A stretch of DNA of 64,000 nt from Candidatus Aegiribacteria sp. (GTDB taxonomy: Bacteria; Fermentibacterota; Fermentibacteria; Fermentibacterales; JCC-6): contig JAIORS010000154.1 of the NCBI GenBank assembly GCA_021108005.1, positions 7,643 to 71,642 on the forward strand, given 5' to 3'. Made by a program: the position numbers and the translations under genes. Within the stretch, counting starts at the first letter, position 1. Each line of letters starts with the position of its first letter. The notes below the pieces were generated by a model. That model saw only the letters and a program-made list of their open reading frames with translations, searched no databases and was not told the DNA's origin. Positions 923 to 57,967 of this stretch are shown here, piece by piece.

Positions 923-924
923 TA

Positions 925-1677: not shown

Positions 1678-1681
1678 TCCG

Positions 1682-5077: not shown

Positions 5078-5132
5078 TGTATTTCACTACCCTCAATTTT
5101 TCGATAATTGCCCTGCCGGTCATTCACTGAAT

Positions 5133-6873: not shown

Positions 6874-6884
6874 TTAACCGTTAT

Positions 6885-7232: not shown

Positions 7233-7296
7233 AGTATTTCCAGAGTGTTTGAGTATTTCTGATTAAGATTATTTAGCAAACGGTATATAATGCTTC

Positions 7297-10596: not shown

Positions 10597-10606
10597 TCTT
10601 GCTTCC

Positions 10607-15590: not shown

Positions 15591-15591
15591 A

Positions 15592-16629: not shown

Positions 16630-16633
16630 GTAT

Positions 16634-17635: not shown

Positions 17636-17783
17636 AGTTCCTCCTGAACTGATCAGCCCGGTATGGGTCTTGACCGGACAATTCCCGTTGGTAGTTTTAC
17701 CAGGACGTTTGTTGAATACTAATATACGATTACTTTGTATATCCGGCAGGGACACTTCACCGCAGATAAGCACCGGAGGCTTT

Positions 17784-28792: not shown

Positions 28793-29703
28793 ATGCGATC
28801 AGCCTTTTCCATTAGTTCCTCGCAGGCTGTAAGAACCACCTCAGAGGAAATATCGTTCAGACACTCAGGAATTCCATAGGGGCATCTGCGTTTGAAGCAT
28901 GGTGAACATGCCCTGTCAGACGTAACTGTTTCAGTGAAACGCCCCAATGGAGCTGTCCATACCGGAGAGCTTGAACCGAATACGGTAACTGTCGGAATTC
29001 CGATCGCGGCTGAGACATGCACGCCCCCGGAATCGTTTCCAACCGTGAGAACAGCGGAAAGCAGATGGGAGACCAGGTCCGGAAGAGCGAGATCGGTTCT
29101 GACGCAAGCACCGGGTACTTCGGAGGAAACCGCGCGTAGAACATCATCCTCCTCACTGGAACCGTAAAATACGGCCGGAAGGTCTGTGCTTTCGCATAGG
29201 TGTCGAGCAAGTTCCGGAAATCGGGACCATCTTTTTGCGCTTCCATACCTTGCACCCGCAAAGTAAGCAATATGCGGAGAACCTTCAGCTTCAACCGATG
29301 GCTTTGGAGTCACGGCATTTCCGGTCGCGCCGGTTTCCGATGCAAGAAACATGTAATCATCGGAATGGTGATGACGGCGATCTGAAGGGTGGCTGATTGC
29401 CTTTGTCAGAAGAAGGCTCCGCATGTCTGTTCCGTACCCGATTCGTTCAGGTATCCCTGACATAAAGCCCTGTAACGCTGATCTGAAGGAATCGGTCATA
29501 AGAAGAAGGTTTGTGAATCCAGCCCCCTTTATTCTATTATCTGTATACAATTTCAGTGAAGGAAAGAAAACGGGAATTAGTCCCGATACCCTTGAATGAC
29601 TCCATAAACTCATCTGTGGGTATTTTTTCTCGAGCAACGAGATCGAAGGAAGTGACATGACCAGATCACCTAGCCAGTTGGGAGTTCTGACTACCAGATT
29701 CAA
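28789..29703 (-). CDS. waaF: GT9 glycosyltransferase (WaaF-like heptosyltransferase)
   Basis: PNWLGDLVM, AKRW, NDSGGVHVSAA, C-terminal CSPCFKRRCP; TTG start. Confidence 0.85.
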   Translation of the reverse strand: MNLVVRTPNWLGDLVMSLPSISLLEKKYPQMSLWSHSRVSGLIPVFFPSLKLYTDNRIKGAGFTNLLLMTDSFRSALQGFMSGIPERIGYGTDMRSLLLTKAISHPSDRRHHHSDDYMFLASETGATGNAVTPKPSVEAEGSPHIAYFAGARYGSAKRWSRFPELARHLCESTDLPAVFYGSSEEDDVLRAVSSEVPGACVRTDLALPDLVSHLLSAVLTVGNDSGGVHVSAAIGIPTVTVFGSSSPVWTAPLGRFTETVTSDRACSPCFKRRCPYGIPECLNDISSEVVLTACEELMEKADRI

Positions 29704-29704
29704 T

Positions 29705-30631
29705 TCACCATCCTTTTTTCAGCAGTTTAACCCAGGCCTCAACGAAATCACTCTCATTCGATGCCGGTTCTCCGCCTGTCCATTTGATGAAGCTGTTCGA
29801 TTTATCAAGGCCTACAACGGGCACGCCGAATGCGCATGCGTCTCCCCAGATATCATCCGAATCGGTTATCACGGCGGAAGCGTCGGCGATAATCGCAGTC
29901 TTCACATCTCTGTCCAGTGTAGTGAAATCACAGTTCCTGCCGGATAGAGAAATCGTTCTCAGTGGTATTTCAGCCCTGCTCTTCTCAAGAATTGAAATTG
30001 CAGAAGATGTGGTGACTATATAAGGCAGCATCCTTCCTGAAACCGGAGCCATCATTCTTTCCGCAGCCTTTTCTACCTTTCTCGGAAGCGAAGGTTTCCA
30101 ATTGGGATCGAATGTAATCCCTACAGCGTTGCACATCTCCAAAAGAATATCCGGATAAATATCCGATTCAGTCTTTATTCTGAAATTTATGTACGGCGAC
30201 GAATGATTGACAGGAGCCATCCTTATTCCGCAGGAAGTACTACCCAGTAATCTTTCCATTTTACTGTTGACGTTCGCGTATGGGTATACGAGGACTGTTC
30301 CATCGGAAAAAGATTTGCCTTCTATCGTATCAGGTATTTCAGGGTGCCCTGAGTATGAATGAACTGAGGGGCGAAGCCGCAGCATGTTGAAAAGCTCATT
30401 GTCTCTTCTGCTGCAGATGACTGTGAGGATCTTTTTCGGAAATTCCGTCTGAAGAGCGTTTGCCATGTATACAGCCGGCCAGATGTCCGATTCCACGGTT
30501 CCCGCGATTAGCAGAAAACCGTCCGGATTAAGCAGATCATCGGGCAGGTGAATGATCCTGCTGTTAAGCTTTCTTAAGCTCAGCGGTTTTCCAAGTGTGT
30601 TTCTCAACAATTTTCCCATTGCGAGTTTCAT
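29705..30631 (-). CDS. Hypothetical protein, possibly divergent GT9-fold
   Basis: 'SDIWPAVYMANALQTEFPKKILTVIC' and 'VITDSDDIWGDACAFGVPVVGL' echo GT9 segments without the canonical motifs. Confidence 0.5.
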   Translation of the reverse strand: MKLAMGKLLRNTLGKPLSLRKLNSRIIHLPDDLLNPDGFLLIAGTVESDIWPAVYMANALQTEFPKKILTVICSRRDNELFNMLRLRPSVHSYSGHPEIPDTIEGKSFSDGTVLVYPYANVNSKMERLLGSTSCGIRMAPVNHSSPYINFRIKTESDIYPDILLEMCNAVGITFDPNWKPSLPRKVEKAAERMMAPVSGRMLPYIVTTSSAISILEKSRAEIPLRTISLSGRNCDFTTLDRDVKTAIIADASAVITDSDDIWGDACAFGVPVVGLDKSNSFIKWTGGEPASNESDFVEAWVKLLKKGW

Positions 30632-31308
30632 TCCAGATCCTCCAGGAGTGTTGCGGCAAAATGCTTCGTAATTGAAGTGTATTTATCTCCCCCGTAAAGC
30701 GACTGCAGTACGGACATGGACTCGCCAAACCTGTTCTGCTCATGAAGGCTCAGGGCAAGGGAGATAACCGGTAAGCCTTCTCCGGGAAAGCAGCTGGAAA
30801 GAAAAACTGCTATATCCTCAGCCTCTTCGTATCTGCCGGTTTGTACAAGTGCAAAACTCAGATCAAGCGCGGAATAAAACCGCTGCCTGGTCGAAGCAGC
30901 AAGGTCAATGGAAAGCCTGAAGTACTCAGCCGCGCTGTTTCCGTTACCCCTGAACTGGGCGGCAAGCCCCTTTGCTCTGCTTTCCAGCCATCGGCTTCCA
31001 TGAATGGAATCCAAAGTCATACAGGCGAATTCAGAAAGTCCGCAGTTCCAGCTCAATCGCGCATACCAGAAATCAAAGAAGGAGGATTCAATTGGAAAAC
31101 ACTCAAGCTGCAATAATAGATCAAAAGCATGAGTATTGCTGCCTGAATAAAGGGCTTCCTCAAGAAATCCAGTGAGTATTCTTGATTCACCTGCGGTGTC
31201 GTTATCTTCGAAATATGCACGTCCTGCTTCAACAAAATCGCCGGATAGTTCCAGTTCCGCTCCCGATGAAAGAAACAGTGAAAACAAAAGAGAATAGTAT
31301 ATAAGCAT
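30628..31308 (-). CDS. TPR-containing exported protein
   Basis: Signal peptide; helical repeats such as 'ALVQTGRYEEAE' and 'LHEQNRFGESM'. Confidence 0.65.
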   Translation of the reverse strand: MLIYYSLLFSLFLSSGAELELSGDFVEAGRAYFEDNDTAGESRILTGFLEEALYSGSNTHAFDLLLQLECFPIESSFFDFWYARLSWNCGLSEFACMTLDSIHGSRWLESRAKGLAAQFRGNGNSAAEYFRLSIDLAASTRQRFYSALDLSFALVQTGRYEEAEDIAVFLSSCFPGEGLPVISLALSLHEQNRFGESMSVLQSLYGGDKYTSITKHFAATLLEDLE

Positions 31309-31311
31309 TGT

Positions 31312-31959
31312 TTACTCCAGAAATCGTGAAAGCAACCTTCTCAGTAGACGAAGATAACTGAGAAGGCCTGTAAAAGCTGATAGCAGAGCTATTATTGTCA
31401 GTGGAGTATGAAGTGATTGGAATATCTGCTTATGGGGGAATGCCAGCCTTCCGGCGGCTGTCATCAGAAGAAGGTAACTGAACAACACCGCGAGACGCTC
31501 ACCCGTAGTGATTGTTACAACAGGAACATGAATACTCCAGGATATAGCCGAAAGTGAAAAGAGCAAAAGAAGATGATATCCGACCAGTATGCTGGCTACA
31601 ACAGTATCAATGGCGCCAAGGGAGAAGGATAATGCTATCAGTGAAACGGAAATGAAAAGCTTGTCGGCCGTAAAATCCATGACCTTTCCGGGATAGGAGG
31701 TTTTTTTTAATCTTCTTGCAAGCCATCCATCAAGGTAGTCTGAAATACCACACACAAGAATGACCCAGAAAAGAAAGTCAAGGGACAACGAACCGTAAAC
31801 CATCATAATTACCATGCCGGCTCCAAGAAAACGTAGCCATGTTATCGCTGCGGGAAGAATCGCGAAACTGTCGGCTATCTGCTGAGCTTTTTCCTGAACT
31901 TCCCGATTCAGTTGTCTCAGAAAAATCCTGTTCTTACCAGTTGCTGGATCAGTGTTCAT
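31312..31959 (-). CDS. CDP-alcohol phosphatidyltransferase family protein
   Basis: SDYLDGWLAR...GKVMDFTADK motif; TM helices. Confidence 0.9.
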   Translation of the reverse strand: MNTDPATGKNRIFLRQLNREVQEKAQQIADSFAILPAAITWLRFLGAGMVIMMVYGSLSLDFLFWVILVCGISDYLDGWLARRLKKTSYPGKVMDFTADKLFISVSLIALSFSLGAIDTVVASILVGYHLLLLFSLSAISWSIHVPVVTITTGERLAVLFSYLLLMTAAGRLAFPHKQIFQSLHTPLTIIALLSAFTGLLSYLRLLRRLLSRFLE

Positions 31960-32543
31960 CGATTTCTCTCCCTGGCGCCTGCAACAAAGAGGCTGTCAAG
32001 GGATTTTATTCCGATCCAGTCCCTTTCCCAGTGAAATGACACAGGGAAAAATTCATGCGAAACAAGTTCGAGTTCAGACGATCCCACAAGAAGGTTCGGA
32101 TGAAAACAACCATCCGGTGAAGTGTTCATCCATCCCTTGTAAAGGATGGCGGCAATTGTAGGAGCGTAATCGTCGTCTTCGATGTCCGGAGGAATGCTGA
32201 TATCTATGGATATTACGTTGTACAGATCGAAGCGTCCGTACCACGAAAGAGCTATTCCAAGATCCCTTCTTGTAACTGGCAATACTTCTCCCCGGCCCTC
32301 CATCCATATTTCAGCATCATCGATTCTGCCGGATGAGACGAAAAGACGCACAAGAGGGATTAGCGCTTTTCTGTTGCCATTTTTTAACTGCTGCAGAAGA
32401 AATATCTCACTCGTATACGTTGAAGTTACCGAATCACCCATGATTCCGTACCCTGAAGCCAGAAGCCAGAAATCCTGTTGGTCGTTAACTGAAGCTGTGA
32501 CAAGAGAGCAGAACAGAAGAAGCGCGGAAAAGAGCATAAACAT
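31956..32543 (-). CDS. Hypothetical exported protein
   Basis: MFMLFSALLLFCSLVTAS signal peptide beginning at ATG 32543 (or 32537) immediately after the tRNA; ATGA overlap with the next gene. Confidence 0.65.
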   Translation of the reverse strand: MFMLFSALLLFCSLVTASVNDQQDFWLLASGYGIMGDSVTSTYTSEIFLLQQLKNGNRKALIPLVRLFVSSGRIDDAEIWMEGRGEVLPVTRRDLGIALSWYGRFDLYNVISIDISIPPDIEDDDYAPTIAAILYKGWMNTSPDGCFHPNLLVGSSELELVSHEFFPVSFHWERDWIGIKSLDSLFVAGARERNR

Positions 32544-32618
32544 GGAGCGGGTAACGGGGGTCGAACCCGCGACATTCAGCTTGGGAAGCTGACACTCTGC
32601 CAACTGAGTTATACCCGC
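32543..32618 (-). tRNA. tRNA-Gly (anticodon CCC), CCA encoded
   Basis: GCGGGTATAACTCAGTTGGCAGAGTGTCAGCTTCCCAAGCTGAATGTCGCGGGTTCGACCCCCGTTACCCGCTCCA: 76 nt, acceptor stem GCGGGTA/TACCCGC, anticodon arm TCAGC-TTCCCAA-GCTGA, GGTTCGA T-loop. Confidence 0.96.
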
Positions 32619-32644
32619 TCCGGACCGACGAGATGAATATGCTT

Positions 32645-33478
32645 TCATAAAGCTACCGTCAAGTCTTCGTTCGGGGGACTTTCAAGAACACCTTCGTATA
32701 CTGTTCTTGCCTCACCCTGGAGCCACCATCCATGGCTGCTCTTTCCTACCTTCAATATTCTTCCGCTTCTTACGGTAATATTCAGTGGAAGGCACATTTT
32801 ATGGATATTAGCAGCACAGATTGCTGAGGCTACCGCTCCGGTTCCACAGGCAAGAGTCTCTCCCTCAAGACCCCTCTCCCAGGTTCGGATTGAAAGATCC
32901 GACTTACCGGTTATCCATGCGAAATCGACATTGGCACCCTCTTTTCCGAAGAGAGCGTGATTTCTGAGAATCGGTGCCAATTCTTCAAAGGGGAACTCCT
33001 CTGATTCGGCAAACATGACAACGATATGAGGTACGCCTGTATTCAGAAATGATAATCGTAAACCTACGGAATCCAAATCGATGTACCGATCCAGATAATG
33101 TACTTCCGGGGCAGTCATCCATAGTCTGACGCTGTTCTGTCCGGTTATCTCAGCGAAATGAACTCCGGCATCGCTTCTGAAACGGAAAATGCCTCTATCA
33201 GGCACAATGCCTGCTGAAGCTGCGTATCCAGCTATGCATCTTCCGCCGTTCCCACACATTACAGCAGCTTTTCCATCGTTGTTATAGAACTTCATGCGAA
33301 ATGCGTATTCAGAATCATCTTTAAGTTCCAGGAGACCATCGGCCCCGACTGACAGACCCCGTGCGCACAGTTTTCTGATAAGGTCAGGGGTTATGATATC
33401 GTCAAGCGATGAATCCATGTTATCAAGAAGTATGAAATCATTTCCTGCGCCGCTCATTTTCACGAATTTCAGTTTCAT
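32645..33478 (-). CDS. dapF: Diaminopimelate epimerase
   Basis: KMSGAGNDF, MCGNGGRC, GVPH, NVDF, WERG, ETLACGTGA. Confidence 0.96.
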   Translation of the reverse strand: MKLKFVKMSGAGNDFILLDNMDSSLDDIITPDLIRKLCARGLSVGADGLLELKDDSEYAFRMKFYNNDGKAAVMCGNGGRCIAGYAASAGIVPDRGIFRFRSDAGVHFAEITGQNSVRLWMTAPEVHYLDRYIDLDSVGLRLSFLNTGVPHIVVMFAESEEFPFEELAPILRNHALFGKEGANVDFAWITGKSDLSIRTWERGLEGETLACGTGAVASAICAANIHKMCLPLNITVRSGRILKVGKSSHGWWLQGEARTVYEGVLESPPNEDLTVAL

Positions 33479-35682
33479 TCCATTTCCCTGTCGGTAATCA
33501 TTTGAAGTTCTGCCTCCGCCTGAGTATTTTCGGGATCTTCTTCAAGTACAAGCACATATTCGATTACTGCTTCATTGAATTTGCCTTCCGACGCGAACAG
33601 CCTTGCTAGAAGAAGCCTTAATTCAGGTCTTTCACCGCGCCAGTAGATAAATGTCTCAATATCTTCAGCAAGATTATCTAGATCGTAACTGCACTGAATA
33701 TACAACTGAATAAGGTCGTTGAGCATCTGTTCCGTAACATCCCGCGGGCCATCTCCGGATAAACCTATGAGAAGGGCGCCTGAAAGCATATCCGGATCGT
33801 TCATCTCGATACCTGTATCGGCAAGATACCCCGAGGCTGCCCTGGGATCTGCGAGAAGGGCTCTGGCTGAATCGTAACCGTCGTAGCAGTGCCTGTAACG
33901 GTCAACAAATAGAAAGCGCCTTTGCACAGGTTCCGCGTTTGCTTCTCCCAGTTTAAAAACGCGAAGAGATGAACCCTGAAAAACAGGTGTCAGTGAAGAT
34001 AGCAGCTCCGGTGCGAACTGCATTTTCAGTGCGACCGCATCGTCCGGTACATCCTCAAGGCCTGCCAGATACAGAAGGCCGCAATAGCTGTCGTCCAGCA
34101 GGAAATCCGCTTGATAAACAACAAGTTCGCATTCCTTTTCTTTCATGAATGCAGTAAGGCTGTCCTCAGGCATGAACATTACACTGGCGAATCTAACGAT
34201 GTTCCTTCTATTGCTTCTGTTTTCAAAGAAGGTATGTGTAATTACAGGTCGATGCGCATAGGCGGAAACGAGTCCCGAAATATGCCAGAAACTTAGTACC
34301 GCCTCATCACTGCCGGTTTCTCTCTGCATCCAATGAAGAAATGAATCCAGTTCAATGTCATTCAGTAATGATGAAGTATTCCTGAACTGAAGCCCGCTTT
34401 TCGAGATTATTTCCGCAACATTTCCCGGGATAATCGATTGCATCAGTAATAACGCAATGGCCGGGATGAATAACCATGTTTTACGAAGTGAGAGTGTAAT
34501 CACCGGAATGAGAGCGATTACCAGAAATACAAGAAGCCTGTCGAAGAAAAGGTATCCTGCCAGTGAAAGAAACAGGAACCAGAATACCAGTCTGCCCTTC
34601 TTCTCCCTGAAAAACGCTGGCATTCCCGGAAGTGCAACAGCGACGGGAATACCGAAAACAAGCAGGAACTGCGCAGGAGTAGGACTGGTATATCCAGGAA
34701 CCCAGAACAGTCTTGCGTCACTGGAAAGCAATGATGGGTCGGAAGGATGCGAGAACATGAAACGTATCTTCGCCGCAATTACCGCAGCAACATGCCCGCT
34801 GGAACCGGATCCTGCGAACACTGAAAGAACGGCTAGAATTGTTCCGCCAATTGGAACCCAGACATTCCTGAAGCGCGGAAGAACAAGAAGGACAGCCATT
34901 ACTGTTGATGGGCTTAGAATGGCTCCATCGTGCCGCATATGAGAAAGCAGAACTGCGGCTGCAACCTGTGCGGCAGCAAATGAGATCCGGAGAGAAAAAG
35001 GAACATCACCATTTCTATAATTCCTCCAGAAAAGGTAAACCAGAAGGAAAAATACAATGAAGGCGGATACTTTCCAGGCGGCAAGTGTAAGAAAAAGAAC
35101 AAGTCCTGCCGCGATTGATGTAATCAGTGCTTTCCTGTCAGTTGTTCCGTCCCGATGATCGTCCGAAAGAGCTATTTCTGTAAGCCAGGCAAGTGTAACC
35201 AGAAGCGGAAGCGCAACCGTCTCTCTATAGAATGATTCCCCTCTTGCTCTTAAAAGCGCTGGAAAGATAAAGGCATAAAGGGATGAACCCGCCAGCGCGA
35301 ATCGAATGCTGTAATCGGCAGAGCGCATCCATAGGAACAGCGCAGGAATTGTGAGGAGAGGAAAAAGAAAACAGAAAGCTTTTATGAAATCATCAAAATC
35401 CCCGCCAATTATCCTGTGAATACCTCCGGCAAGATACTCCTCAAAAATGGAATTCTCGGATGTATTCATGCCTTCAGGATGCATCACGAGAGAATCTAAT
35501 TCCGGAATACTACCATTTTGTGAAATCATTTTCGCGTACCTGTAGGATTGCGTTGTTTCTGTCTGCATCCTGATGGAAGGCGGCATGACCTTCCGCGCGA
35601 AGTATGTTCTGAAAAGAAAGCCTGAAGCAACGGCTGCAAGTAAAGCTGAAATGACAAGCGTTTTCTTCATTCCATTGGACAT
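33475..35682 (-). CDS. GT-C fold membrane glycosyltransferase (DPY19/STT3 superfamily) with C-terminal TPR
   Basis: About 11-13 TM helices plus a periplasmic domain; motifs QTETTQSYRYAK, DSLVMHPEGMNT, RARGESFYRETVALP, AVLSFWHISGLVSAYAHRPVITHTFFEN; terminal TPR 'ARLFASEGKFNEAVIEY...DPENTQA'. Confidence 0.75.
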   Translation of the reverse strand: MSNGMKKTLVISALLAAVASGFLFRTYFARKVMPPSIRMQTETTQSYRYAKMISQNGSIPELDSLVMHPEGMNTSENSIFEEYLAGGIHRIIGGDFDDFIKAFCFLFPLLTIPALFLWMRSADYSIRFALAGSSLYAFIFPALLRARGESFYRETVALPLLVTLAWLTEIALSDDHRDGTTDRKALITSIAAGLVLFLTLAAWKVSAFIVFFLLVYLFWRNYRNGDVPFSLRISFAAAQVAAAVLLSHMRHDGAILSPSTVMAVLLVLPRFRNVWVPIGGTILAVLSVFAGSGSSGHVAAVIAAKIRFMFSHPSDPSLLSSDARLFWVPGYTSPTPAQFLLVFGIPVAVALPGMPAFFREKKGRLVFWFLFLSLAGYLFFDRLLVFLVIALIPVITLSLRKTWLFIPAIALLLMQSIIPGNVAEIISKSGLQFRNTSSLLNDIELDSFLHWMQRETGSDEAVLSFWHISGLVSAYAHRPVITHTFFENRSNRRNIVRFASVMFMPEDSLTAFMKEKECELVVYQADFLLDDSYCGLLYLAGLEDVPDDAVALKMQFAPELLSSLTPVFQGSSLRVFKLGEANAEPVQRRFLFVDRYRHCYDGYDSARALLADPRAASGYLADTGIEMNDPDMLSGALLIGLSGDGPRDVTEQMLNDLIQLYIQCSYDLDNLAEDIETFIYWRGERPELRLLLARLFASEGKFNEAVIEYVLVLEEDPENTQAEAELQMITDREME

Positions 35683-35727
35683 TATTCAGAAGAATCTTTC
35701 ATCTGACAGGGAGTTTGCCCTGTGCTT

Positions 35728-36309
35728 TCAGGACAGCAGGCCCGAATGCTGCTTCGCGATTATGGAGGACATCATCTTAAGAGTTTCCAGAGGACCCGAA
35801 CCCCCAATGGCAACCGATTCTATACCTGGCCAATCGTATCGGTTCAAAAGATTCTCCATATGTTCAACAGATGAGATTGAAGGAAGATCACGCTTGTTGA
35901 ACTGAAGTATTGTCGGAATTCCGGAAAGCTCCAGCCCGTACGATTCAAGGTTGTTGTCGAGGTCTTCGATACTGTCCAGATTAGCATCCATACGTTCGGT
36001 CTGGCTGTCTGCTACAAAAACAAGCCCATCGACCCCGTCCAGTATCACCCTCCTGCTTAGGGAGTAATATGCCTGTCCGGGAACCGAATAGAGGTGAAGC
36101 CTGACTCTGTCATTTCCTATTGACGCGTAATTCACTGGAAGAAAGTCAAAGAAGACCGTTCGCTCTCCTCTTGTGCAGAGTGTTACAAGCCTTCCCCGGT
36201 GTTCCGGCGCAATAATGTCTCTGATCCTTCTCAGGTTAGTTGTTTTTCCTGAAAGACCCGGTCCGTAATAAACGATTTTATACGCTACCTCATTGACAGA
36301 TCGATGCAT
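35728..36309 (-). CDS. mglA: MglA-family small GTPase (paralog 1)
   Basis: KIVYYGPGLSGKTTN, ERTVFFDF, LYSVPGQ, VFVADSQ, NKRD. Confidence 0.88.
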   Translation of the reverse strand: MHRSVNEVAYKIVYYGPGLSGKTTNLRRIRDIIAPEHRGRLVTLCTRGERTVFFDFLPVNYASIGNDRVRLHLYSVPGQAYYSLSRRVILDGVDGLVFVADSQTERMDANLDSIEDLDNNLESYGLELSGIPTILQFNKRDLPSISSVEHMENLLNRYDWPGIESVAIGGSGPLETLKMMSSIIAKQHSGLLS

Positions 36310-36344
36310 TTATCCCCGTTTCAGAAATTCATTAAAAAACAAAC

Positions 36345-37661
36345 TTAGAGTATATAATTACCATCTTCTCGACGATCAGCAAGGTCAAGCAAAATCTTCG
36401 AAGCAATTGCACCCGTAATCTTCACATTTCCCTGGACAAGATCGGGTGCCCCAAATAATTGTTCATCCAGTAGATAACTTAGTACCGGCCTTAGTCTCCT
36501 TGCCCCTATATCTTCGGTTTCATCGTTAAGGTAATTGGCGACTCTGGCGACTTCCAATGCAGCTTTTCGATTCAGTTTGAGTTCAACGCCGTCCGCCTCA
36601 AGAAGTGCAGTATACTGTTTGAGAAGAGAATTTTCGGGTTCAGTCAATATACGAAACAGGTCCTTTTCCGAAAGTGGATCGAGTTCGACTCTCATTGGGA
36701 AACGGCCCTGCAACTCAGGTATAAGGTCAGAAGGGCTGGATCCATGAAAAGCTCCCGCGGCAATGAAAAGTATATGGTCAGTATTCACTGGTCCGTAGCG
36801 TGTTGGTACGGTACATCCTTCCACAATCGGAAGCAGATCCCTCTGAACCCCCATTCTGGAAACCTCAGGTCCTTTGCTTTCACTTGTTCCGATGATTTTG
36901 TCGATCTCATCTATGAAGATTATCCCTTCCTCCTGGGCGAGTTTGAGACCCCTCGAGATATGATCGCTTCCTTCCAGAAGCCTTCTCATTTCTTCTTCGT
37001 AAAGACGTTCCCTGGCTTCAGATACGGTCAGCTTCTTCCTTTTTCGTCTGCTGCCAACCATTTTCTGCATGAGTTTCTTCAGGTTCTCGCCTGCTGGATT
37101 ATCGAAGCCTCCCCCGCCTGGTATCAGTGGCATTATCTCCATCTGCGCGATGCTCTCCGGAAGTATCAGTTCGATCTCGTTATCGTCGAGAAGACCCTTA
37201 TCAAGCATCCGGATAATTTCACTGTTTGATATGGAATCGAATCCGGTTTTTTTAAGTGTTTCAGCCAGTTTACTGCTTACAACGTCTCTTACCTGCTCCT
37301 CACGTTCTTTTGCAGCTTTTTCAGCCTCGATGTTCACTGCCTGACGGACAAGGGATCTGACCATTGACTCAACATCCCTGCCGACATAACCGGTTTCAGT
37401 ATACTTTGAAGCTTCGACTTTTACGAAAGGGGCTCCTGTCATATTGGCAAGCCTTCTGGCAATCTCGGTTTTACCTATGCCTGTAGGTCCCATCATTATA
37501 AGATTACTTGGATATATTTCGGACTTGATCTCCTCAGCTGCTTCCCTTCTTCTGAAGCGGTTGCGAAGGGCTATAGCTACAGAACGTTTTGCGCTATCCT
37601 GGCCTATGACATGACGATCAAGCCATTGAACGATCTGTGCCGGGGTAAGATCTCTTTTCAT
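36345..37661 (-). CDS. hslU: ATP-dependent protease ATPase subunit HslU
   Basis: IGQDSAKRSVAIALRNR, GPTGIGKTEIARR, KVEASKY, IDEIDK, VQRDLLP, ELQGRFP, IGARRL; ATG 37661 (TGATG overlap with hslV). Confidence 0.97.
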   Translation of the reverse strand: MKRDLTPAQIVQWLDRHVIGQDSAKRSVAIALRNRFRRREAAEEIKSEIYPSNLIMMGPTGIGKTEIARRLANMTGAPFVKVEASKYTETGYVGRDVESMVRSLVRQAVNIEAEKAAKEREEQVRDVVSSKLAETLKKTGFDSISNSEIIRMLDKGLLDDNEIELILPESIAQMEIMPLIPGGGGFDNPAGENLKKLMQKMVGSRRKRKKLTVSEARERLYEEEMRRLLEGSDHISRGLKLAQEEGIIFIDEIDKIIGTSESKGPEVSRMGVQRDLLPIVEGCTVPTRYGPVNTDHILFIAAGAFHGSSPSDLIPELQGRFPMRVELDPLSEKDLFRILTEPENSLLKQYTALLEADGVELKLNRKAALEVARVANYLNDETEDIGARRLRPVLSYLLDEQLFGAPDLVQGNVKITGAIASKILLDLADRREDGNYIL

Positions 37662-38197
37662 CAGTGAAGCTCCTCGATCTGTATTTCTCCGCCTGTGTAT
37701 ATACATATCGATGAAGCTATTTTTAAACTCTCACGGGCTATTTTCGCCGGTCCCATTTTCGTATGTTCATCGAGTGCCCTTGCCGCTGCCATAGCGTAAG
37801 ACTGACCGGAACCAACCGAAACAATTCCGTCCTCAGCCTCAACGATTTCTCCCGAACCTCCTATGAGCAAGGCATGCTTACTGTCAACGGCTGCTATAAG
37901 AGCCTGGAGTTGTCTGAGGTATTTATCGGTTCTCCATTCCCGAGCCAGTTCCACTGCAGCCCTGGGAAGATTACCTCTTGCTGCTTCGAGTTTCTCTTCA
38001 AGTCTTTCAACAAGGGCAAACGCATCCGCTCCCGTTCCGGAAAAACCCACAAGTACGGTATTGGAGTACAGCTTCCTTATTTTTTTTGCCGTACTCTTGA
38101 TTACCGTTTCACCAAGGGTGACCTGACCGTCGGCAGCCATCGCGGCTTTGCCGTTACGGACTATCCCGAGTACGGTTGTTGCGTGAATATCTTCGAT
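37661..38197 (-). CDS. hslV: ATP-dependent protease peptidase subunit HslV (inferred ATC start)
   Basis: HA|TTVLG...AADGQVTLG, GFSGTGADA, WRTDKYLR, GSGQSYA, CIYT. The N-terminal Thr lies upstream of the first ATG; see findings. Confidence 0.92.
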   Translation of the reverse strand: MEDIHATTVLGIVRNGKAAMAADGQVTLGETVIKSTAKKIRKLYSNTVLVGFSGTGADAFALVERLEEKLEAARGNLPRAAVELAREWRTDKYLRQLQALIAAVDSKHALLIGGSGEIVEAEDGIVSVGSGQSYAMAAARALDEHTKMGPAKIARESLKIASSICIYTGGEIQIEELH

Positions 38198-41100
38198 TAT
38201 GATCCTCCATCAAGAGTATTGACCCAGGAATAACTTCCTGAGCCTCCGCCCGGTTCAGGCAAGGATTCAGCATACGATGCGGGATCCTGAAGAATTTCGG
38301 ACAGGGTTAAATCAGAAACATGGCTGCTTCTACAGAGGGCTGCATACATTAAATAGGGTTTCCCGCCCCTGGCAGCCATCCAGGCCAGTGCTTCCGGAGA
38401 TACCCTTCTGCCTTCAATAACGAACCATTCTGACCACCGCCTGGCCTCTTCAGGACTTTCTTCAAGCAGCATCAAGGCAAATCCCTCTACTGTCTCGGCT
38501 TCAGCTTCATCCTCAATATAGTCGGACAGGACAAGTCCCGCGGATATGGATGACATGATGCGTCCCCTTGAAGCCAGTTCAACCATAGAGTCAATAATAT
38601 CTCCGGCGTTCGCGTCTTCTGTAAGGCTAATTCTATTTGAGCTGTCCTGACTGATGAATTCAAAGAATATTGACAGGCCGCTGTCACGGGGATTAACTCT
38701 TGCTCCCGTCCTTGAATTATCAAGAATATCCTCGAGCGTACTCCGTGCGAGCGCAGCCAGTTCAACCGATTGAAGGTTATGTTGCACATCCATCCCGTCG
38801 AGAATACTCCAGGCTCCAATATAATCGGAGAACATCAGTGATACTTCAATCTTCATCCATGCAAATGGTATTGAACCCTCATCGGAGGTTGTCCATTCAA
38901 ATGACACTGAACTGTCATCAATAATGTTAAAAAGATTTCTGTACTCCATCTCCTGCCGGTATCCGAAAGTGTTCTCCGAACCTGTTGCCATGTTTAAAAT
39001 CGAATAGGACAGCTGCAGGAGTTCCCGATTGCCAAGTCTCTCGGCAGCTTCCATCGCTTCGGCAGCAAGAATCTCTAGAGTATCCGCGGCAGCAGCAGGT
39101 CCGTGAAGACCATCGATCAGCTTACCAACTATCATGGCTCTGGACGGCAATATCTCAGCCCAGTCGTCGGGAAGTGTTAGTCCAGGGCCATCTGTACACT
39201 GTCCGGCTCTCCGGCTGCCATGTAATGATAGGCGAGCCTGTGATATGCTGAAACGTAGTTCTTCAGAAGCTGCACGGCCTGATCACATTTGAATATGGAT
39301 GGATCTTCGATTCCGTTGAACTGATACTCGTTCATAAGCTGCCAGCCCCGAACTCCGTTGACGGCATCCACGACGGGATGATCTGTTATGCTGAATGCTA
39401 TACCTTCCATTTCCTGGTAATGCTCAAGAAATCTCCGGCTTTCGGGGGCAACCGTGCCAGCGAAGTAAATTTCGCGACCATGAACAGGCCTGTTCTTGAT
39501 CATGTTCAAAAGAACGAGATCCTGCATTGCAAGCGCGCCCTGATTGGATAAACCCTCTGTGGGCATAGCCATGGCCATAGAGCTGCTGGTTATTGCCCAG
39601 GGCCACACCTGGTTAAATGTTACCCGGAGAATCGCCCCGTCAATTGGTGATGATTCAGCCTGTCCGTTTTCATTCAAATGGAAATAGTGCGGACCCCATA
39701 TGTAAACAGGATGCAGCGAATCAACAAGTCCATAGTCATCGTAATCAAGAAGGAGAGAATCCTTTTCTACAAGCTGCTGCACGTACCAGTTCGTGTTCAT
39801 CAGGCTAAGGTTGCTTACAATGACATCTCTGCGTACTCCCAGAACTCCCTGCGCGAACCACAGGGGGAATGTGTCGTTGTCACCGTTGGTAATAAGAACA
39901 GCGTTCTGAGGACAGCTTTCCAGAAGATTTATACCGTAATCCCGCGGTCGCACCTGTATGAGTTCACACCAATTGATAAAGCGGGTATCAGCAATGTTAC
40001 CCAGGCCAGTCTCGATTTGTTCGTAAGGAAATCTTTGAAAACGGAAACCAGCCCTATTCCCGAGAATATAGCAAAAAGGGCGAAGGAAGCTCCAAAGAAA
40101 TAGTCCCTCTCCCTTACTTCTCCTAAAAGCGTAGCCTCTGTACCGGTTTTAAAATTGAGAATGAAGAAAATGAAGAGGATTGATGACATCAGAAATAGTA
40201 AACCCAGATATAGAAGCAGTTTAGGTCTATTCAAGCCCAGAACCACCAGTCCGTAAATCGCTCCGAAAATCAATAATATCCTTACGACCATGGATGCGGC
40301 TGAACCAGCCGTATCACCCAGATAACGATCCCATCCGTCATTCACCCTTCCGGACTGCCAGGATAGATATTTCATATAAAGCTTCATCTGATCGATGAAC
40401 GGACCCTTCCGCTCAAGGATCGATGTTCTGCCGTACTGCTCTCGAGTGAAAGCCTTCTCAAAATCGGTCCAGTGGGAACTGTCACGTTCGTTTATTTCCG
40501 GATTCTGCACAGCGCGAAGGGGCATATAAAGATGAATACTGAAAGCCAGAACTACCAGGCCGACTATTGTAAGAACGAACCAGGATCGTTTCCATATATC
40601 CGTCTTCTTCCTGAAGGCGTAAATAAGGAACATCAAAAGTATAGGGGGGCCGGTAACGAACGGTACGCTGCCATGGTTTCCGACAGCAAGGATTATCAGA
40701 TAGGAAATTAGAAGCAGATACCTCGCTTCTCCCCAGCCGCCATGATCCTTTTTTCCCTTTTCATGCTTTTTCTCTGCGTATTTCTCTATCCAGCAGTCGA
40801 ATGACCACATTATGATAAATGTCAGCAGTAACGCCGTGGCGTAGGTTTCGGTGGCATTGCTGTTACGCCAGATGGTGTAGCTGAAAGCGGCAATAAATCC
40901 GGAAAGAACAGCCATTGGCCTGTACCAGTCCGGCGCGAAATCCATTCTGTTTCCCCATCGCTGAACGAGGCGGACAAGAAGGCCGATGGTGGCTGCTCCG
41001 GCCAATGCGCACAAAGTATTAACCCTTGCCGCCACTGCCGGGATAAAGGAAAACACGATAGTACTAAATCTTCCAAGGAGAACAAACAGGGGAACACCGG

Positions 41101-41272
41101 GCGGGTGTGGAACACCCGCAGTCCATGAACAGGTCACGTATTCTCCGCTGTCCCAGAAACTTACACTGGGAGCGAGAGTTAACAGGTATGCTAAAAGGGC
41201 AATCAGTCCTACTATTAAGGCAATTGACCTGTCAATTCTGATTCTTCTTATTTCTTCAATACTATTAGTCAA
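38197..41272 (-). pseudogene. DUF2723 (TMEM260-like) GT-C membrane protein split by two frameshifts into three ORFs (39929-41272, 39177-39953, 38197-39150)
   Basis: WDSGEY, GVPHPPG, ATETYA in the first part; GDNDTFPLW, NLSLMNTNWY in the second; the third frame stays open upstream across the second ORF's stop; TTG start overlaps the xerC stop. Confidence 0.75.
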
Positions 41273-42180
41273 TCTTCCCCCCTGGGATGTGCTTTCCTGT
41301 ATGCCTTCCTCAATCGTTCCATTGTCAGGTGCGTGTAAACCTGGGTTGTAGAAAGAGTAGCGTGTCCCAGCATATCCTGAACCGCTCTCAGGTCGGCTCC
41401 ATTATCAAGCAGATGGGTTGCAAAGCTGTGCCGGAAAGTGTGAGGCGTTGCTCCCGCTGCCCGGGCAGCTTTTTTCACTCCGCATGCAACAATACGCTGG
41501 ATATCTCTGGGGTCAAGCTTTCTTCCATGGATGCTGATAAATACGGTTCCCGGATCAGCGGTAGAATCCACTGCAAGCTCACTCCTGCTGTCAATCCATA
41601 ATTTCAGTGATCTGCAGGTTAATTCTGGAAGAGGTACTATTCTTTCTCTCTTTCCCTTACCCATGATTTTTATCTCTCTTGCCTGCAGGTTCAGTCCGGA
41701 AAGAAGTACCGAAACGGATTCTGAAGCTCTTAAACCTGCTCCGTAAAGAAGATCAACTACAGCTCGGTTGCGTCTGCCAAGAACCGATGATACATCGAAA
41801 CTGTCGATTACCTGCTGCACCTCCCGGACGCTGAGAAACCCGGGTAATCTGGTTGCTGTTTTAGGCATTGCAATCAGTTTTGCCGGATTCGAGGGTAATC
41901 TTTCAGTTTCAAGCATCCAGTTCCCGAAGGTCCGCAAAGATGAAACCTCCCTTGCCAGAGATTTCGGATCAAGTTCTCTTGACGCTTCGTGTCGAAGAAA
42001 TCCCCTCAACCCGTTCAGTGTAAAGCCATCAAGAATACTCTCGGATTTCTGCCAGTTATTGAATCTGTAGAGATCGGCTCTGTATGCCTTTATTGTGTTC
42101 TCGGAAAATCTCCGGCCAAAAAGCAGATCCCTGCAGAAATTTTCTATCAGTTCACAATTTTCTTTCTGCAACTGGGGCAC
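41269..42180 (-). CDS. xerC: Tyrosine recombinase XerC
   Basis: LYGAGLRASE, GKGKRER, TPHTFRHSFATHLL, LGHATLSTTQVYT; topA-xerC-hslVU context. Confidence 0.93.
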   Translation of the reverse strand: MPQLQKENCELIENFCRDLLFGRRFSENTIKAYRADLYRFNNWQKSESILDGFTLNGLRGFLRHEASRELDPKSLAREVSSLRTFGNWMLETERLPSNPAKLIAMPKTATRLPGFLSVREVQQVIDSFDVSSVLGRRNRAVVDLLYGAGLRASESVSVLLSGLNLQAREIKIMGKGKRERIVPLPELTCRSLKLWIDSRSELAVDSTADPGTVFISIHGRKLDPRDIQRIVACGVKKAARAAGATPHTFRHSFATHLLDNGADLRAVQDMLGHATLSTTQVYTHLTMERLRKAYRKAHPRGED

Positions 42181-44351: not shown

Positions 44352-44419
44352 ATATCCTTCATGATTATAAACTCTAATATGTGATATTGTTTTGGAGAAT
44401 GTTCTCAAAAAGTGATTGA

Positions 44420-57829: not shown

Positions 57830-57967
57830 TCTTTTTATCACCTTTAGATAATTCTCCTTTCTCTTCGCATGTTCATACTCATTTCAGATAATTCATTGAG
57901 TATGAAGTGAGATCAGATTCCGCAAGAACAGAACTTGATTATATTTCATGGTATTCCACAAAACAAC

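What the first reader, a model, noticed from the sequence alone, without database searches (positions are those of the whole stretch)
33475..35682. Bacterial GT-C protein with DPY19 (tryptophan C-mannosyltransferase)-like signature motifs
Seen motifs compared with human DPY19L1 recalled from memory (needs verification): QTETTQSYRYAKMI vs RTEMGLYYSYFKTI (catalytic-Glu loop); DSLVMHPEGMNT vs DxLTEYPLxINT; RARGESFYRETVALP vs RVMWTPPLRESFSYP; and HRPVITHTFFEN vs LRPIVNHPHYED. The STT3/PglB WWDYG motif needed for N-glycosylation is replaced by FWHIS, and the DxD/DNE loop is replaced by YRE. A C-terminal TPR is appended. Established: DPY19 C-mannosylates WxxW motifs and is known from animals and apicomplexans. 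Inference: a bacterial DPY19-like enzyme, potentially an undescribed prokaryotic protein C- or other glycosylation system using a polyprenyl-phosphate sugar.
Basis: partly seen in the sequence, partly recalled or inferred. Interest (0 to 1): 0.78.

Follow-up and report, generated by a model that had tools for sequence, protein, structure and literature searches.

The report
Bacterial DPY19/STT3-like membrane glycosyltransferase with TPR tail
This gene from an uncultured marine-sediment bacterium encodes a membrane sugar-transferring enzyme that is a distant cousin of the animal enzyme that puts mannose on tryptophan (DPY19) and of the N-glycosylation enzyme STT3; it belongs to a large, uncharacterised bacterial family whose target is unknown.

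Summary
The 735-aa ORF (33475-35682, minus strand) is real and is matched base for base by independent metagenome contigs.

It is a GT-C membrane glycosyltransferase: about 13 transmembrane helices, a periplasmic alpha/beta "dome" and a C-terminal TPR-like tail. It is a divergent Fermentibacterota member of a large bacterial family (854 representative clusters, more than 12 phyla, all MAGs, named only "hypothetical" or "TPR protein").

Nine of 10 sampled relatives pass Pfam's Dpy19 threshold; the window protein does not (16 vs 27 bits). A TPR-trimmed family profile hits C. elegans DPY19 best (E 2e-28), then eukaryotic STT3 (1e-21 to 8e-18), and PglB barely. Profile-profile comparison with eukaryotic DPY19 gives 99.4 %. 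Fold search ties DPY19 and STT3, with DPY19 best on TM-score and RMSD.

The DPY19 catalytic and donor-side residues have family-wide counterparts: Glu71→E42, Arg211→R145, the Rx6LRE motif, Trp262→W203, Arg471→R382 and the HPxYE loop. STT3's WWDYG and DNE motifs are absent. DPY19's WxxW-binding elements (Lys473, the EL5 LYTCxxEFDF motif) are not conserved.

Verdict: a DPY19-like enzyme by descent and probably in its donor chemistry. Tryptophan C-mannosylation is neither shown nor predicted.

The parts
33475..35682 (-). Whole gene: 735-aa DPY19/STT3-like GT-C glycosyltransferase with a TPR-like tail. The stop codon is 33475-33477. Its end overlaps the dapF start codon by 4 nt.
   Evidence: ORF list. 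More than 140 homologues at 43-90 % identity. Identical independent contig. AF2 model with pLDDT 88.9 and pTM 0.85.
34399..35682 (-). Membrane-embedded GT-C module, residues 1-428, with about 13 TM helices. The N-terminus is cytoplasmic (K6 K7).
   Evidence: AF2 secondary structure. Hydropathy scan. Foldseek matches to 13-TM STT3 and CeDPY19.
35536..35571 (-). Start of periplasmic loop EL1: RMQTETTQSYRY. It contains the putative catalytic acid E42 (codon 35557-35559).
   Evidence: E42 is invariant in 41/41 Fermentibacterota and is E (107) or D (7) in the wider family. HMMER places it on CeDPY19 Glu71, but that sub-alignment is not significant alone. The role of Glu71 is described in PMC10154233.
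35461..35496 (-). EL1 motif DSLVMHPEGMNT (D63, P69, G71).
   Evidence: D63, P69 and G71 are family-wide. The motif aligns with STT3 'FDDRAWYPLGR'.
35221..35250 (-). EL2 motif R145-x6-Y152-R153-E154. This is the DPY19-type 'Rx6LRE'; STT3 has 'Rx6DNE'.
   Evidence: HMMER alignment: R145/Arg211 and R153E154/R219E220. Motif definition from PMC6801728. Position 152 is never Asp or Glu in the family.
35071..35076 (-). EL3 W203-K204. W203 is the counterpart of CeDPY19 Trp262, which hydrogen-bonds the donor phosphate.
   Evidence: Alignment. W is present in 113/114 wider-family sequences and 41/41 clade members. The role of Trp262 is described in PMC10154233.
34681..34794 (-). EL5: HVAAVIAAKIRFMFSHPSDPSLLSSDARLFWVPGYTSP. 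This is a family-specific motif: H297, K305, P313, D315, P316, R324, W327, Y331.
   Evidence: P313 and W327 are invariant in 124 sequences. Only the first helix (H297...K305) aligns with DPY19 'AHIFxILKSK'. The rest is not aligned by hhalign and lacks LYTCxxEFDF.
34528..34539 (-). EL6/TM12 start, R382-L-L-V385. R382 is the counterpart of CeDPY19 Arg471 (donor phosphate). L384 and V385 occupy the Lys473 and Leu474 positions.
   Evidence: Alignments. Position 382 is R/K family-wide; position 384 is variable.
33907..34398 (-). Periplasmic alpha/beta 'dome' domain, residues 429-592.
   Evidence: hhalign vs eukaryotic DPY19: 99.4 %, E 7.9e-22, over window residues 369-582. Beta-strands and helices in the AF2 model.
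34273..34293 (-). SFWHISG, at the position of STT3 WWDYG. Specific to the Fermentibacterota clade.
   Evidence: Aligned to SWWDYGY of STT3. The wider family has F-G-x-S-P here.
34207..34251 (-). Dome loop RPVITHTFFENRSNR. It is the counterpart of the CeDPY19 substrate-responsive loop RPIVNHPHYEHVGIR (His575-Arg584, with Tyr578 as 'peptide sensor').
   Evidence: Alignments. F486 (F/Y/W), E487 and R492 are family-wide. The loop's role is described in PMC10154233.
33478..33906 (-). C-terminal all-helical TPR-like domain, residues 593-735. One TPR is recognisable at residues 684-726. It is periplasmic, since no TM helix follows the dome.
   Evidence: Pfam TPR_19/TPR_14 at E~0.1. Designed TPR in the PDB at E 5e-4. 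Helical repeats in the model. Strong multi-TPR tails in relatives.

Best explanation
The gene encodes a periplasm-facing GT-C glycosyltransferase. It belongs to a previously uncharacterised bacterial lineage of the STT3/DPY19 clade.

**Proposed mechanism (inferred).**
- A polyprenyl-monophosphate sugar, most simply undecaprenyl-P-hexose, enters from the membrane.
- Its phosphate is held by R382 and W203, and probably also R145.
- E42 at the start of loop EL1 acts as the general acid/base.
- No divalent metal is needed, because the metal-binding Asp of STT3's DNE/DxD motif is replaced by Tyr or Leu, as in DPY19.
- The acceptor is most likely an exported protein. It would bind in the groove between EL1/EL5 and the periplasmic dome, with the TPR tail helping to recruit it.
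- The acceptor site is probably not the WxxW sequon of animal DPY19.
- The atom that is glycosylated (C, O or N) is unknown.

**What is shown and what is inferred.**
- Shown: the fold, the homology, conservation of catalytic and donor-site residues, and absence of the STT3 signature motifs.
- Inferred: the donor type, metal independence, a protein acceptor, and a periplasmic location for the TPR tail.
For: **Fold**
- AF2 model: pLDDT 88.9, pTM 0.85.
- Foldseek to CeDPY19: TMt 0.67-0.69, RMSD 5.6-6.2 A, E~1e-12.
- Foldseek to STT3: TMt 0.59-0.67, E~1e-13.
- ArnT matches poorly (TM 0.27-0.34).
- A central family member, P0131, gives the same ranking.

**Homology**
- 854 representative clusters match the family profile; 336 of them at E<=1e-30.
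- 9 of 10 sampled relatives pass Pfam Dpy19's gathering score, at 40-89 bits.
- The trimmed family profile scores 102 bits with CeDPY19 (E 1.9e-28), 67-80 bits with STT3, and E 0.011 with PglB.
- hhalign against eukaryotic DPY19: 99.4 %.

**Residue mapping and conservation**
- E42/Glu71.
- R145/Arg211.
- Rx6YRE matches the DPY19 motif Rx6LRE.
- W203/Trp262.
- R382/Arg471.
- H483..F486-E487..R492 matches His575..Tyr578-Glu579..Arg584.
- The functional roles of these CeDPY19 residues come from PMC10154233.

**Other support**
- TPR fusions are general in the family.
- Eukaryotic GT-C+TPR enzymes (the TMTCs) are protein O-mannosyltransferases (PMC7801869).
- The ORF is intact in independent assemblies.
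Against: - No experimental data exist for any member of the family.
- No RNA evidence was found.
- The window protein alone is below Pfam's Dpy19 threshold and is weak against a eukaryote-only DPY19 profile.
- The E42-Glu71 equivalence rests on a sub-alignment that is not significant by itself.
- The N-terminal half is more STT3-like, so a pyrophosphate-linked oligosaccharide donor is not excluded.
- There is no conserved operon partner, no candidate acceptor gene and no polyprenyl-phosphate-sugar synthase nearby.
- In Fermentibacterota the gene sits among cell-envelope genes (dapF, a CDP-alcohol phosphatidyltransferase, GT9). That is also compatible with a non-protein acceptor.
Confidence: 0.6

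Rival explanations
1. It is a genuine bacterial tryptophan C-hexosyl (C-mannosyl) transferase. On this reading it is functionally orthologous to DPY19 and modifies Trp in WxxW-like or other Trp-containing sequons of exported proteins.
For: - The catalytic Glu, both phosphate-contacting Arg residues, Trp262 and the HPxYE loop of DPY19 all have conserved counterparts.
- The dome domain is DPY19-like, not STT3-like.
- The Tyr578 position is always aromatic (F/Y/W). EL5 carries an invariant W327 and an aromatic residue at 331, which could rebuild an indole-binding groove.
- E to D is the only variation at position 42, as in DPY19 paralogues.
Against: - The Lys473 cation-pi clamp for Trp(+3) is not conserved. 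Position 384 is H/L/M in the clade and S/H/E/Q elsewhere in the family.
- The EL5 motif LYTCxxEFDF, which holds Tyr395 and Phe401, is absent and is not aligned by hhalign.
- Tyr578 is Phe in most members.
- C-mannosyl-Trp has not been reported in bacteria in the literature searched.
Confidence: 0.12
2. It is an oligosaccharyltransferase-like enzyme, an STT3/PglB/AglB analogue. It would transfer a pyrophosphate-linked glycan en bloc to Asn, or to another residue, of periplasmic proteins.
For: - STT3 chains give the best Foldseek E-values.
- The N-terminal-half profile hits STT3 better than DPY19.
- The window protein has a weak hit to TIGR04154, an archaeal STT3 model.
- The EL1 D..YP.G motif is shared with STT3.
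Against: - WWDYG is absent: FWHIS in the clade, F-G-x-S-P in the family.
- The EL2 DNE/DxD metal site is replaced by (Y/L)RE, and position 152 is never acidic.
- Pfam STT3 is below threshold in all but a marginal case.
- PglB scores only E 0.011, and AglB is not found by sequence.
- The C-terminal domain aligns with DPY19 at 67 bits and with STT3 at 25 bits.
Confidence: 0.08
3. It glycosylates a non-protein envelope acceptor, such as lipid A/LPS core, peptidoglycan or a surface polysaccharide. This would make it ArnT-, Emb- or O-antigen-ligase-like in role.
For: - In Fermentibacterota the gene lies in a conserved array with dapF, a CDP-alcohol phosphatidyltransferase, a GT9 heptosyltransferase and, further away, lpxK-waaA-lpxB.
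- The peptide-binding residues of DPY19 are not conserved.
- TPR domains also occur in polysaccharide-export machinery.
Against: - The synteny does not extend outside the phylum: no neighbour recurs in more than 7 of 59 loci.
- The fold is much closer to the protein-modifying STT3 and DPY19 than to ArnT (TM 0.27-0.42).
- The dome domain and its substrate-responsive loop are retained.
Confidence: 0.17
4. It is a catalytically dead scaffold or chaperone-like membrane protein that merely keeps the GT-C fold.
For: No function has been tested. DPY19L2 in mammals was long discussed as a structural protein.
Against: All predicted catalytic and donor-site residues are under strict conservation across more than 12 phyla: E42, R145, E154, W203, H297, K305, R382 and E487.
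Confidence: 0.03

Closest known systems
DPY19 tryptophan C-mannosyltransferases (CAZy GT98, Pfam PF10034; C. elegans DPY-19, PDB 7ZLG/7ZLH/7ZLI/7ZLJ)
   Same: - 13-TM GT-C fold plus an alpha/beta dome, with the best TM-score and RMSD of all PDB chains.
- Best sequence-profile match; hhalign 99.4 %.
- Shared residues and motifs: the EL1 Glu, the EL2 Rx6(L/Y)RE motif, Trp262, Arg471 and the RPIVxHPx(Y/F)E loop.
- No metal-binding Asp.
- Most bacterial relatives pass Pfam's Dpy19 threshold.
   Different: - Bacterial rather than eukaryotic ER.
- A C-terminal TPR domain is added.
- EL5 carries a different conserved motif: KPxDPxLLxxxARxxWxxPFxSP instead of LYTCxxEFDF.
- Lys473 is not conserved, and Tyr578 is usually Phe.
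- The N-terminal half is closer to STT3.
- The window protein itself is below the Pfam threshold.
STT3 / AglB / PglB oligosaccharyltransferases (GT66, Pfam PF02516)
   Same: - Same 13-TM fold plus a C-terminal domain.
- Foldseek E-values as good as for DPY19.
- Profile hits at 1e-21 to 8e-18 to eukaryotic STT3.
- Shared EL1 D..YP.G motif, EL2 Arg and EL6 Arg.
   Different: - No WWDYG.
- DNE/DxD is replaced by YRE/LRE.
- Glu instead of Asp in EL1.
- PglB and AglB are only marginal by sequence.
- The C-terminal domain aligns with DPY19 much better.
TMTC1-4 and TMEM260 (GT-C + TPR protein O-mannosyltransferases) and their prokaryotic look-alikes
   Same: - Domain logic: an N-terminal GT-C module followed by lumenal or periplasmic TPRs.
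- A TMEM260-like gene lies 2.5 kb upstream in the same gene array.
   Different: - A different GT-C branch: 11 TM helices, PMT/ArnT-like.
- No significant sequence or fold match: TMEM260 chain at E 0.24, and PMT hit in 1 of 41 members.

Membership tests
DPY19 (Pfam PF10034 / GT98) | Scores above Pfam's curated gathering threshold (27.2 bits) | tested here: not met
   The window protein scores 16.1 bits, E 0.0032. Only 10 of 41 clade members reach E<0.01. By contrast, 9 of 10 sampled non-Fermentibacterota relatives pass at 40-89 bits, so the wider family is within Pfam's Dpy19 boundary and the window's clade is a divergent offshoot of it.
DPY19 (Pfam PF10034 / GT98) | 13-TM GT-C fold with a C-terminal lumenal alpha/beta dome | tested here: met
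   AF2 model with pLDDT 88.9. Foldseek to 7ZLH/7ZLI/7ZLG: TMt 0.67-0.69, RMSD 5.6-6.2 A.
DPY19 (Pfam PF10034 / GT98) | Catalytic Glu at the start of EL1 (CeDPY19 Glu71; Asp in DPY19L4) | tested here: inconclusive
   E42 is invariant in the clade and E/D-only in the family. HMMER aligns it to Glu71, but that segment scores -0.9 bits alone. No 3D superposition was possible.
DPY19 (Pfam PF10034 / GT98) | EL2 Rx6LRE motif (STT3 has Rx6DNE) | tested here: met
   R145-x6-Y152-R153-E154 aligns with R211-x6-L218-R219-E220. Motif definition in PMC6801728.
DPY19 (Pfam PF10034 / GT98) | Donor-phosphate contacts Arg471 and Trp262 | tested here: met
   R382 (R/K family-wide) and W203 (154 of 155 sequences) are aligned to them.
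DPY19 (Pfam PF10034 / GT98) | Dome loop RPIVNHPHYE..R (His575-Arg584; Tyr578 peptide sensor) | tested here: met
   The window has RPVITHTFFENRSNR. H483, E487 and R492 are conserved. Tyr578 becomes Phe, and the position is aromatic in all but about one member.
DPY19 (Pfam PF10034 / GT98) | EL5 aromatic groove for Trp(0): LYTCxxEFDF with Tyr395 and Phe401 | tested here: not met
   The motif is absent, and EL5 beyond its first helix is not aligned by hhalign. The family has its own EL5 motif with an invariant W327.
DPY19 (Pfam PF10034 / GT98) | Trp(+3) pocket: Arg211 + Lys473 clamp with Leu474 as floor | tested here: not met
   The Arg211 equivalent is present. The Lys473 position is L384 in the window, H/L/M in the clade and S/H/E/Q in the family. 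The Leu474 position is Val.
DPY19 (Pfam PF10034 / GT98) | Transfers mannose from Dol-P-Man to C2 of Trp in WxxW/C | not testable with these tools
   Needs biochemistry or glycoproteomics.
STT3/AglB/PglB (GT66, PF02516) | WWDYG motif in the C-terminal domain | tested here: not met
   The aligned position reads SFWHISG. The wider family has F-G-x-S-P.
STT3/AglB/PglB (GT66, PF02516) | EL2 metal-binding DxD/DNE | tested here: not met
   YRE in the window and LRE in the family consensus. Position 152 is never acidic.
STT3/AglB/PglB (GT66, PF02516) | Passes the Pfam STT3 or NCBIfam OST model thresholds | tested here: not met
   PF02516 is hit by 1 of 41 members at E 0.008. One relative scores 18.3 bits against a cut-off of 24.5. 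TIGR04154 scores 17.9 bits against a cut-off of 450.
ArnT / PMT / TMTC branch of GT-C | Fold and profile similarity to ArnT/PMT (11-13 TM, PMT_2 domain) | tested here: not met
   ArnT: TM 0.27-0.42, E 1e-4. PMT is hit in 1 of 41 members. TMEM260 chain at E 0.24.

The most novel reading that the evidence does not exclude
Bacteria of many uncultured phyla may carry out a so far undescribed periplasmic protein glycosylation, performed by DPY19-type enzymes with TPR substrate-recruiting tails. This could include C-glycosylation of tryptophan. The same bacterial family would be the prokaryotic stock from which eukaryotic C-mannosyltransferases arose, and it would bridge DPY19 and STT3 in sequence space.
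Probability: 0.15. Interest if true: 0.9.

Novelty: new variant of a known kind. Interest (0 to 1): 0.6.

Why it matters
**State of knowledge.** DPY19 C-mannosylation is regarded as a eukaryotic, mainly metazoan and apicomplexan, invention. In the literature I could search, its only stated evolutionary link is a faint similarity to STT3.

**What this finding adds.**
- It shows a large bacterial family: 854 clusters at 50 % identity, in Elusimicrobiota, Verrucomicrobiota, Planctomycetota, Gemmatimonadota, Fermentibacterota and other phyla.
- The family keeps the DPY19 catalytic and donor-binding residues and the DPY19-type dome. It is also significantly similar to STT3.
- A eukaryote-only DPY19 profile does not detect STT3 at all.
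- The family is therefore a sequence bridge between the C- and N-glycosylation enzymes, and a candidate prokaryotic ancestor or donor of DPY19.

**Practical value.**
- It points to an unexplored bacterial glycosylation activity with a new acceptor specificity.
- Its members are currently annotated only as 'hypothetical' or 'TPR protein'; NCBIfam has no model for them.
- It gives experimentalists soluble-expression-friendly bacterial homologues for mechanistic work on C-glycosyl transfer.

Tried and rejected
1. **Single-sequence searches** (Pfam, NCBIfam, PDB) gave only sub-threshold hints.
2. **Full-length family profile against the PDB.** It was swamped by TPR proteins. The TPR tail had to be trimmed off.
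3. **Genome scan with the diverse alignment A3.** It failed for lack of a conserved 7-10-mer. A narrower alignment, A5, worked.
4. **A second word-indexed homologue search, with the profile.** It only re-found Fermentibacterota.
5. **A third homologue search, with a CeDPY19 fragment.** It returned only fragmentary eukaryotic DPY19 sequences of 390 aa or less. There was no N-terminal DPY19 alignment and no full phylogeny with an STT3 outgroup.
6. **Conserved-neighbour analysis over 59 loci.** It found no recurrent partner. The commonest neighbours were an ABC ATPase, a cobalamin adenosyltransferase, a radical-SAM protein and a redoxin, each in 7 loci or fewer.
7. **Search for a donor-synthesis gene.** No Dpm1/GtrB-type GT2 is present in the window.
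8. **Transcription evidence.** No RNA run holds the locus.
9. **Model coordinates.** They were not exposed to the scripting environment, so residue-level 3D superposition on 7ZLG could not be done.
10. **Rejected: pseudogenisation of the neighbouring TMEM260-like gene.** The two apparent frameshifts are 19-nt deletions peculiar to this assembly.

Full report
**1. The observation**

The window holds a 735-codon ORF on the minus strand at 33475..35682, with an ATG start and a TGA stop. A public gene call for the identical protein starts four codons later (P0001, 731 aa).

- RMQTETTQSYRY: residues 38-49.
- DSLVMHPEGMNT: residues 63-74.
- RARGESFYRE: residues 145-154.
- SFWHISG: residues 464-470.
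- RPVITHTFFEN: residues 478-488.

The DNA is sound. A contig from an independent marine-sediment run covers 32569-36313 with no difference and no gap. A second run differs by one synonymous SNP, at codon T482.

**2. The protein and its close relatives**

The word-indexed search returned 140 homologues at 43-90 % identity (the best 120 were listed). Every one that carries a taxon name is from Fermentibacterota (Ca. Aegiribacteria, Fermentibacteria, Sabulitectum). All are named 'hypothetical protein' or 'TPR protein'.

A 41-sequence alignment shows blocks of invariant polar residues:
- E42, D63, P69, G71;
- R145, R147, G148, S150, Y152, R153, E154;
- W203, K204, H248, D252, H297, K305, H312, P313;
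- R324, W327, R382, W466, S469, G470;
- T484, F485, F486, E487, N491, R492.

AlphaFold2 run on this alignment gives a confident model with pLDDT 88.9 and pTM 0.85. It has three parts:
- about 13 transmembrane helices, with long loops after TM1 (EL1, residues ~33-95) and TM9 (EL5, ~290-335);
- an alpha/beta domain at residues 429-592;
- an all-helical repeat at residues 594-731.

The N-terminus is basic, and the soluble 309-residue C-terminal part is acidic. No transmembrane helix follows the alpha/beta domain. Since that domain must sit on the same side as EL1 and EL5, the C-terminal tail is inferred to be periplasmic.

**3. Which GT-C branch?**

*Single-sequence searches* gave only hints: Pfam Dpy19 at E 0.003 and 16.1 bits against a 27.2-bit cut-off, and archaeal STT3 (TIGR04154) at E 8e-4.

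*Exhaustive profile search.* A search of 1.84 billion representative proteins found 854 clusters at E<=1e-3, 336 of them at E<=1e-30. Most are 650-970 aa long and align over profile positions ~44-590.

*Pfam on the distant relatives.* Nine of ten sampled relatives pass Pfam's own Dpy19 gathering score, at 40-89 bits. Nine of the ten also carry recognisable C-terminal TPR repeats; the tenth, P0128, showed none.

*Trimmed profile against the PDB.* With the TPR tail removed, a 26-sequence profile of the family gave these scores:

| PDB target | E-value | Bits |
|---|---|---|
| C. elegans DPY-19 | 1.9e-28 | 102 |
| Eukaryotic STT3 chains | 1.3e-21 to 8e-18 | 67-80 |
| PglB | 0.011 | – |

*Profile-profile comparison.* hhalign against 20 eukaryotic DPY19 C-terminal halves gives probability 99.4 % and E 7.9e-22, covering window residues 369-582.

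*Fold search* does not separate the two candidates by E-value. STT3 reaches 4e-14 and CeDPY19 5e-13. CeDPY19 has the best geometry, with TMt 0.67-0.69 and RMSD 5.6-6.2 A, against 0.59-0.67 and 7-12 A for STT3. AglB and PglB follow at a distance, and ArnT is poor at TM 0.27-0.34. A second model, of the central family member P0131, gave the same ranking.

Two qualifications are needed.
- The N-terminal half of the family (TM1-TM7) scores better with STT3 (1.6e-12 to 2e-6) than with the single CeDPY19 sequence (1.4e-5). The C-terminal half is clearly DPY19-like: 67 bits against 25 bits for STT3.
- The window's Fermentibacterota clade is a divergent offshoot. Against an HMM built from eukaryotic DPY19 only, other bacterial members reach 58 bits (E 4e-14 at Z=1e6). 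Fermentibacterota stay at 21 bits or below, and the window protein scores 15.8 bits.

A eukaryote-only DPY19 profile finds no STT3 chain at all in the PDB. The bacterial family finds both, so it behaves as a sequence bridge between the two eukaryotic enzyme families.

**4. Residue-level comparison with DPY19**

The functional roles of the CeDPY19 residues come from the cryo-EM paper PMC10154233. The family-defining motifs come from PMC6801728. The mapping comes from the HMMER and hhalign alignments, and the conservation.

| CeDPY19 residue or motif | Role | Window counterpart | Conservation |
|---|---|---|---|
| Glu71 | catalytic acid/base | E42 | E 107, D 7 in the wider family; E in 41/41 of the clade. 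That alignment segment is not significant alone |
| Arg211 | phosphate contact and Trp(+3) clamp | R145 | near-invariant |
| Rx6LRE (STT3: Rx6DNE) | EL2 motif | R145-x6-YRE154 | position 152 never acidic; E154 invariant |
| Trp262 | phosphate hydrogen bond | W203 | 113/114 |
| Arg471 | phosphate salt bridge | R382 | R/K only |
| His575-Pro576-x-Tyr578-Glu579...Arg584 | substrate-responsive dome loop | H483-T-F-F486-E487...R492 | position 486 is F/Y/W; E487 and R492 conserved |

Acceptor-specific elements of DPY19 are not conserved.
- Lys473, the Trp(+3) clamp, corresponds to L384, which is a variable position.
- Leu474 corresponds to Val.
- The EL5 motif LYTCxxEFDF holds Tyr395 and Phe401, which form the Trp(0) groove. 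The family has no such motif. Instead it carries H..L..AK.RF...KP.DP.LL...AR..W..PF.SP, with P313 and W327 invariant in 124 sequences.

The STT3 hallmark WWDYG aligns with SFWHISG. That string is specific to Fermentibacterota; the wider family has F-G-x-S-P at the same position.

**5. Distribution and context**

A scan of one genome per GTDB species, using two family motifs, returned 59 loci. All are MAGs. Elusimicrobiota is the most frequent phylum. Also represented are Verrucomicrobiota, Gemmatimonadota, Ca. Eisenbacteria, Planctomycetota, WOR-3, Armatimonadota, Kiritimatiellia, Auribacterota, Glassbacteria and Thermodesulfobacteriota.

No neighbouring gene family recurs in more than 7 of the 59 loci, and none of the recurrent ones is glycosylation-related.

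Within Fermentibacterota the gene order is conserved:

topA - xerC - TMEM260-like GT-C - hslV - hslU - small Arf/MglA-like GTPase - this gene - dapF - hypothetical - CDP-alcohol phosphatidyltransferase - two hypotheticals - GT9 - polA - sulfatase

The window as a whole is rich in envelope genes: lpxK, waaA, lpxB, ddl and four GT4 genes. It contains no Dpm1/GtrB-type polyprenyl-phosphate-sugar synthase. NCBIfam has no model for the GT-C part of any family member. No RNA-seq run holding the locus could be listed.

**6. Interpretation**

*Shown.* The protein is a GT-C enzyme of the STT3/DPY19 clade.
- Its donor-site and catalytic residues are DPY19-type and strictly conserved.
- Its C-terminal domain is DPY19-like.
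- It lacks the STT3 signature motifs.
- It carries a TPR-like tail.

*Inferred.*
- It uses a polyprenyl-monophosphate sugar without a metal. The Asp that binds the metal in OST is replaced by a hydrophobic residue, as in DPY19.
- It modifies an exported protein held between EL1/EL5, the dome and the TPR tail. The analogy is with DPY19, STT3 and the TPR-bearing TMTC and TMEM260 O-mannosyltransferases (PMC7801869).

*Not established.* Tryptophan C-mannosylation of WxxW is not excluded, but the residues that create that specificity are missing. I therefore give it about 0.12.

An envelope-glycan acceptor remains a serious rival at about 0.17, because of the Fermentibacterota synteny. An OST-like function is unlikely, at about 0.08.

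**7. Novelty**

I found no paper in the searchable library that describes prokaryotic DPY19 homologues. Reviews treat C-mannosylation as eukaryotic.

Pfam's Dpy19 model does already score many of the bacterial relatives above its threshold. The existence of 'bacterial Dpy19-domain proteins' is therefore implicit in the databases. The window's own clade, however, is not recognised.

I classify this as a new, uncharacterised bacterial variant of a known enzyme kind, with TPR fusion and a different acceptor site. It is of moderate to high interest to glycobiologists and for the evolutionary origin of DPY19 and STT3.

**8. Side finding**

The TMEM260-like gene 2.5 kb upstream appears in the window as three ORFs in three frames.
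- Contigs from three independent runs carry 19-nt insertions at exactly the two junctions, after 39179 and after 39946.
- Both insertions begin, on the coding strand, with AGATCGGAAT, which is Illumina-adapter-like.
- Restoring them gives one ORF of about 1040 aa.
- The frameshifts are therefore assembly or trimming artefacts of the window sequence, not biology.
- No other indel was seen in 1-20000 or 26000-64000.

Noticed in passing
window 38197-41272 (minus strand); junctions at 39179 and 39946: A TMEM260-like GT-C gene (PF11028) is split into three ORFs in three frames. Independent runs carry a 19-nt insertion at each junction: +strand CGAAAAGCAATTCCGATCT and CGAAGTAAGATTCCGATCT. Their reverse complements start with AGATCGGAAT, which is Illumina-adapter-like. 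Restoring them gives one ORF of about 1040 aa. The window therefore has two artefactual deletions, probably from adapter trimming. The orthologue in L002 is a single 948-aa gene.
   Followed up: yes
window 35728-36309 and 45921-46529 (minus strand): Two small Arf/MglA-like GTPases (Pfam Arf, E 2e-5 and 4e-7). One lies directly upstream of the target gene, and this position is conserved in Fermentibacterota (L002). The other lies next to a 508-aa protein with no Pfam match (44420-45946).
   Followed up: no
window 54509-55744 and 55901-57841 (minus strand): An adjacent pair that looks like archaeal-type GatD (Asparaginase + GatD_N) and GatE (GatB_N with a weak GAD-domain hit, E 0.008). This would be unusual for a bacterium.
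   Followed up: no
window 28789-44408 vs L002:1-17308: Long-range synteny is conserved between the window and a relative whose target-gene orthologue is 45 % identical. The order is topA-xerC-TMEM260-like-hslV-hslU-GTPase-DPY19-like-dapF-...-CDP-OH transferase-...-GT9-polA-sulfatase. Two eukaryote-like protein-mannosyltransferase homologues thus lie within 6 kb of each other.
   Followed up: partly
window 10607-14655 (minus strand): A lipid A/Kdo cluster lpxK - waaA - lpxB. The waaA ORF (11685-13625, 646 aa) carries an N-terminal DUF374 domain fused to the Kdo transferase domain.
   Followed up: no
window 4354-4539: Short stretches here also fit several other contigs of runs X1 and X2, in both orientations, with loose ends at 4537-4539. 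This suggests a repeated or mobile sequence boundary.
   Followed up: no
window 29819-30901 and 13440-14437: Dense clusters of SNPs occur in run X2 relative to the window, while flanking genes, including the target, are identical. This suggests strain-level variation or recombination patches in hypothetical and envelope genes.
   Followed up: no
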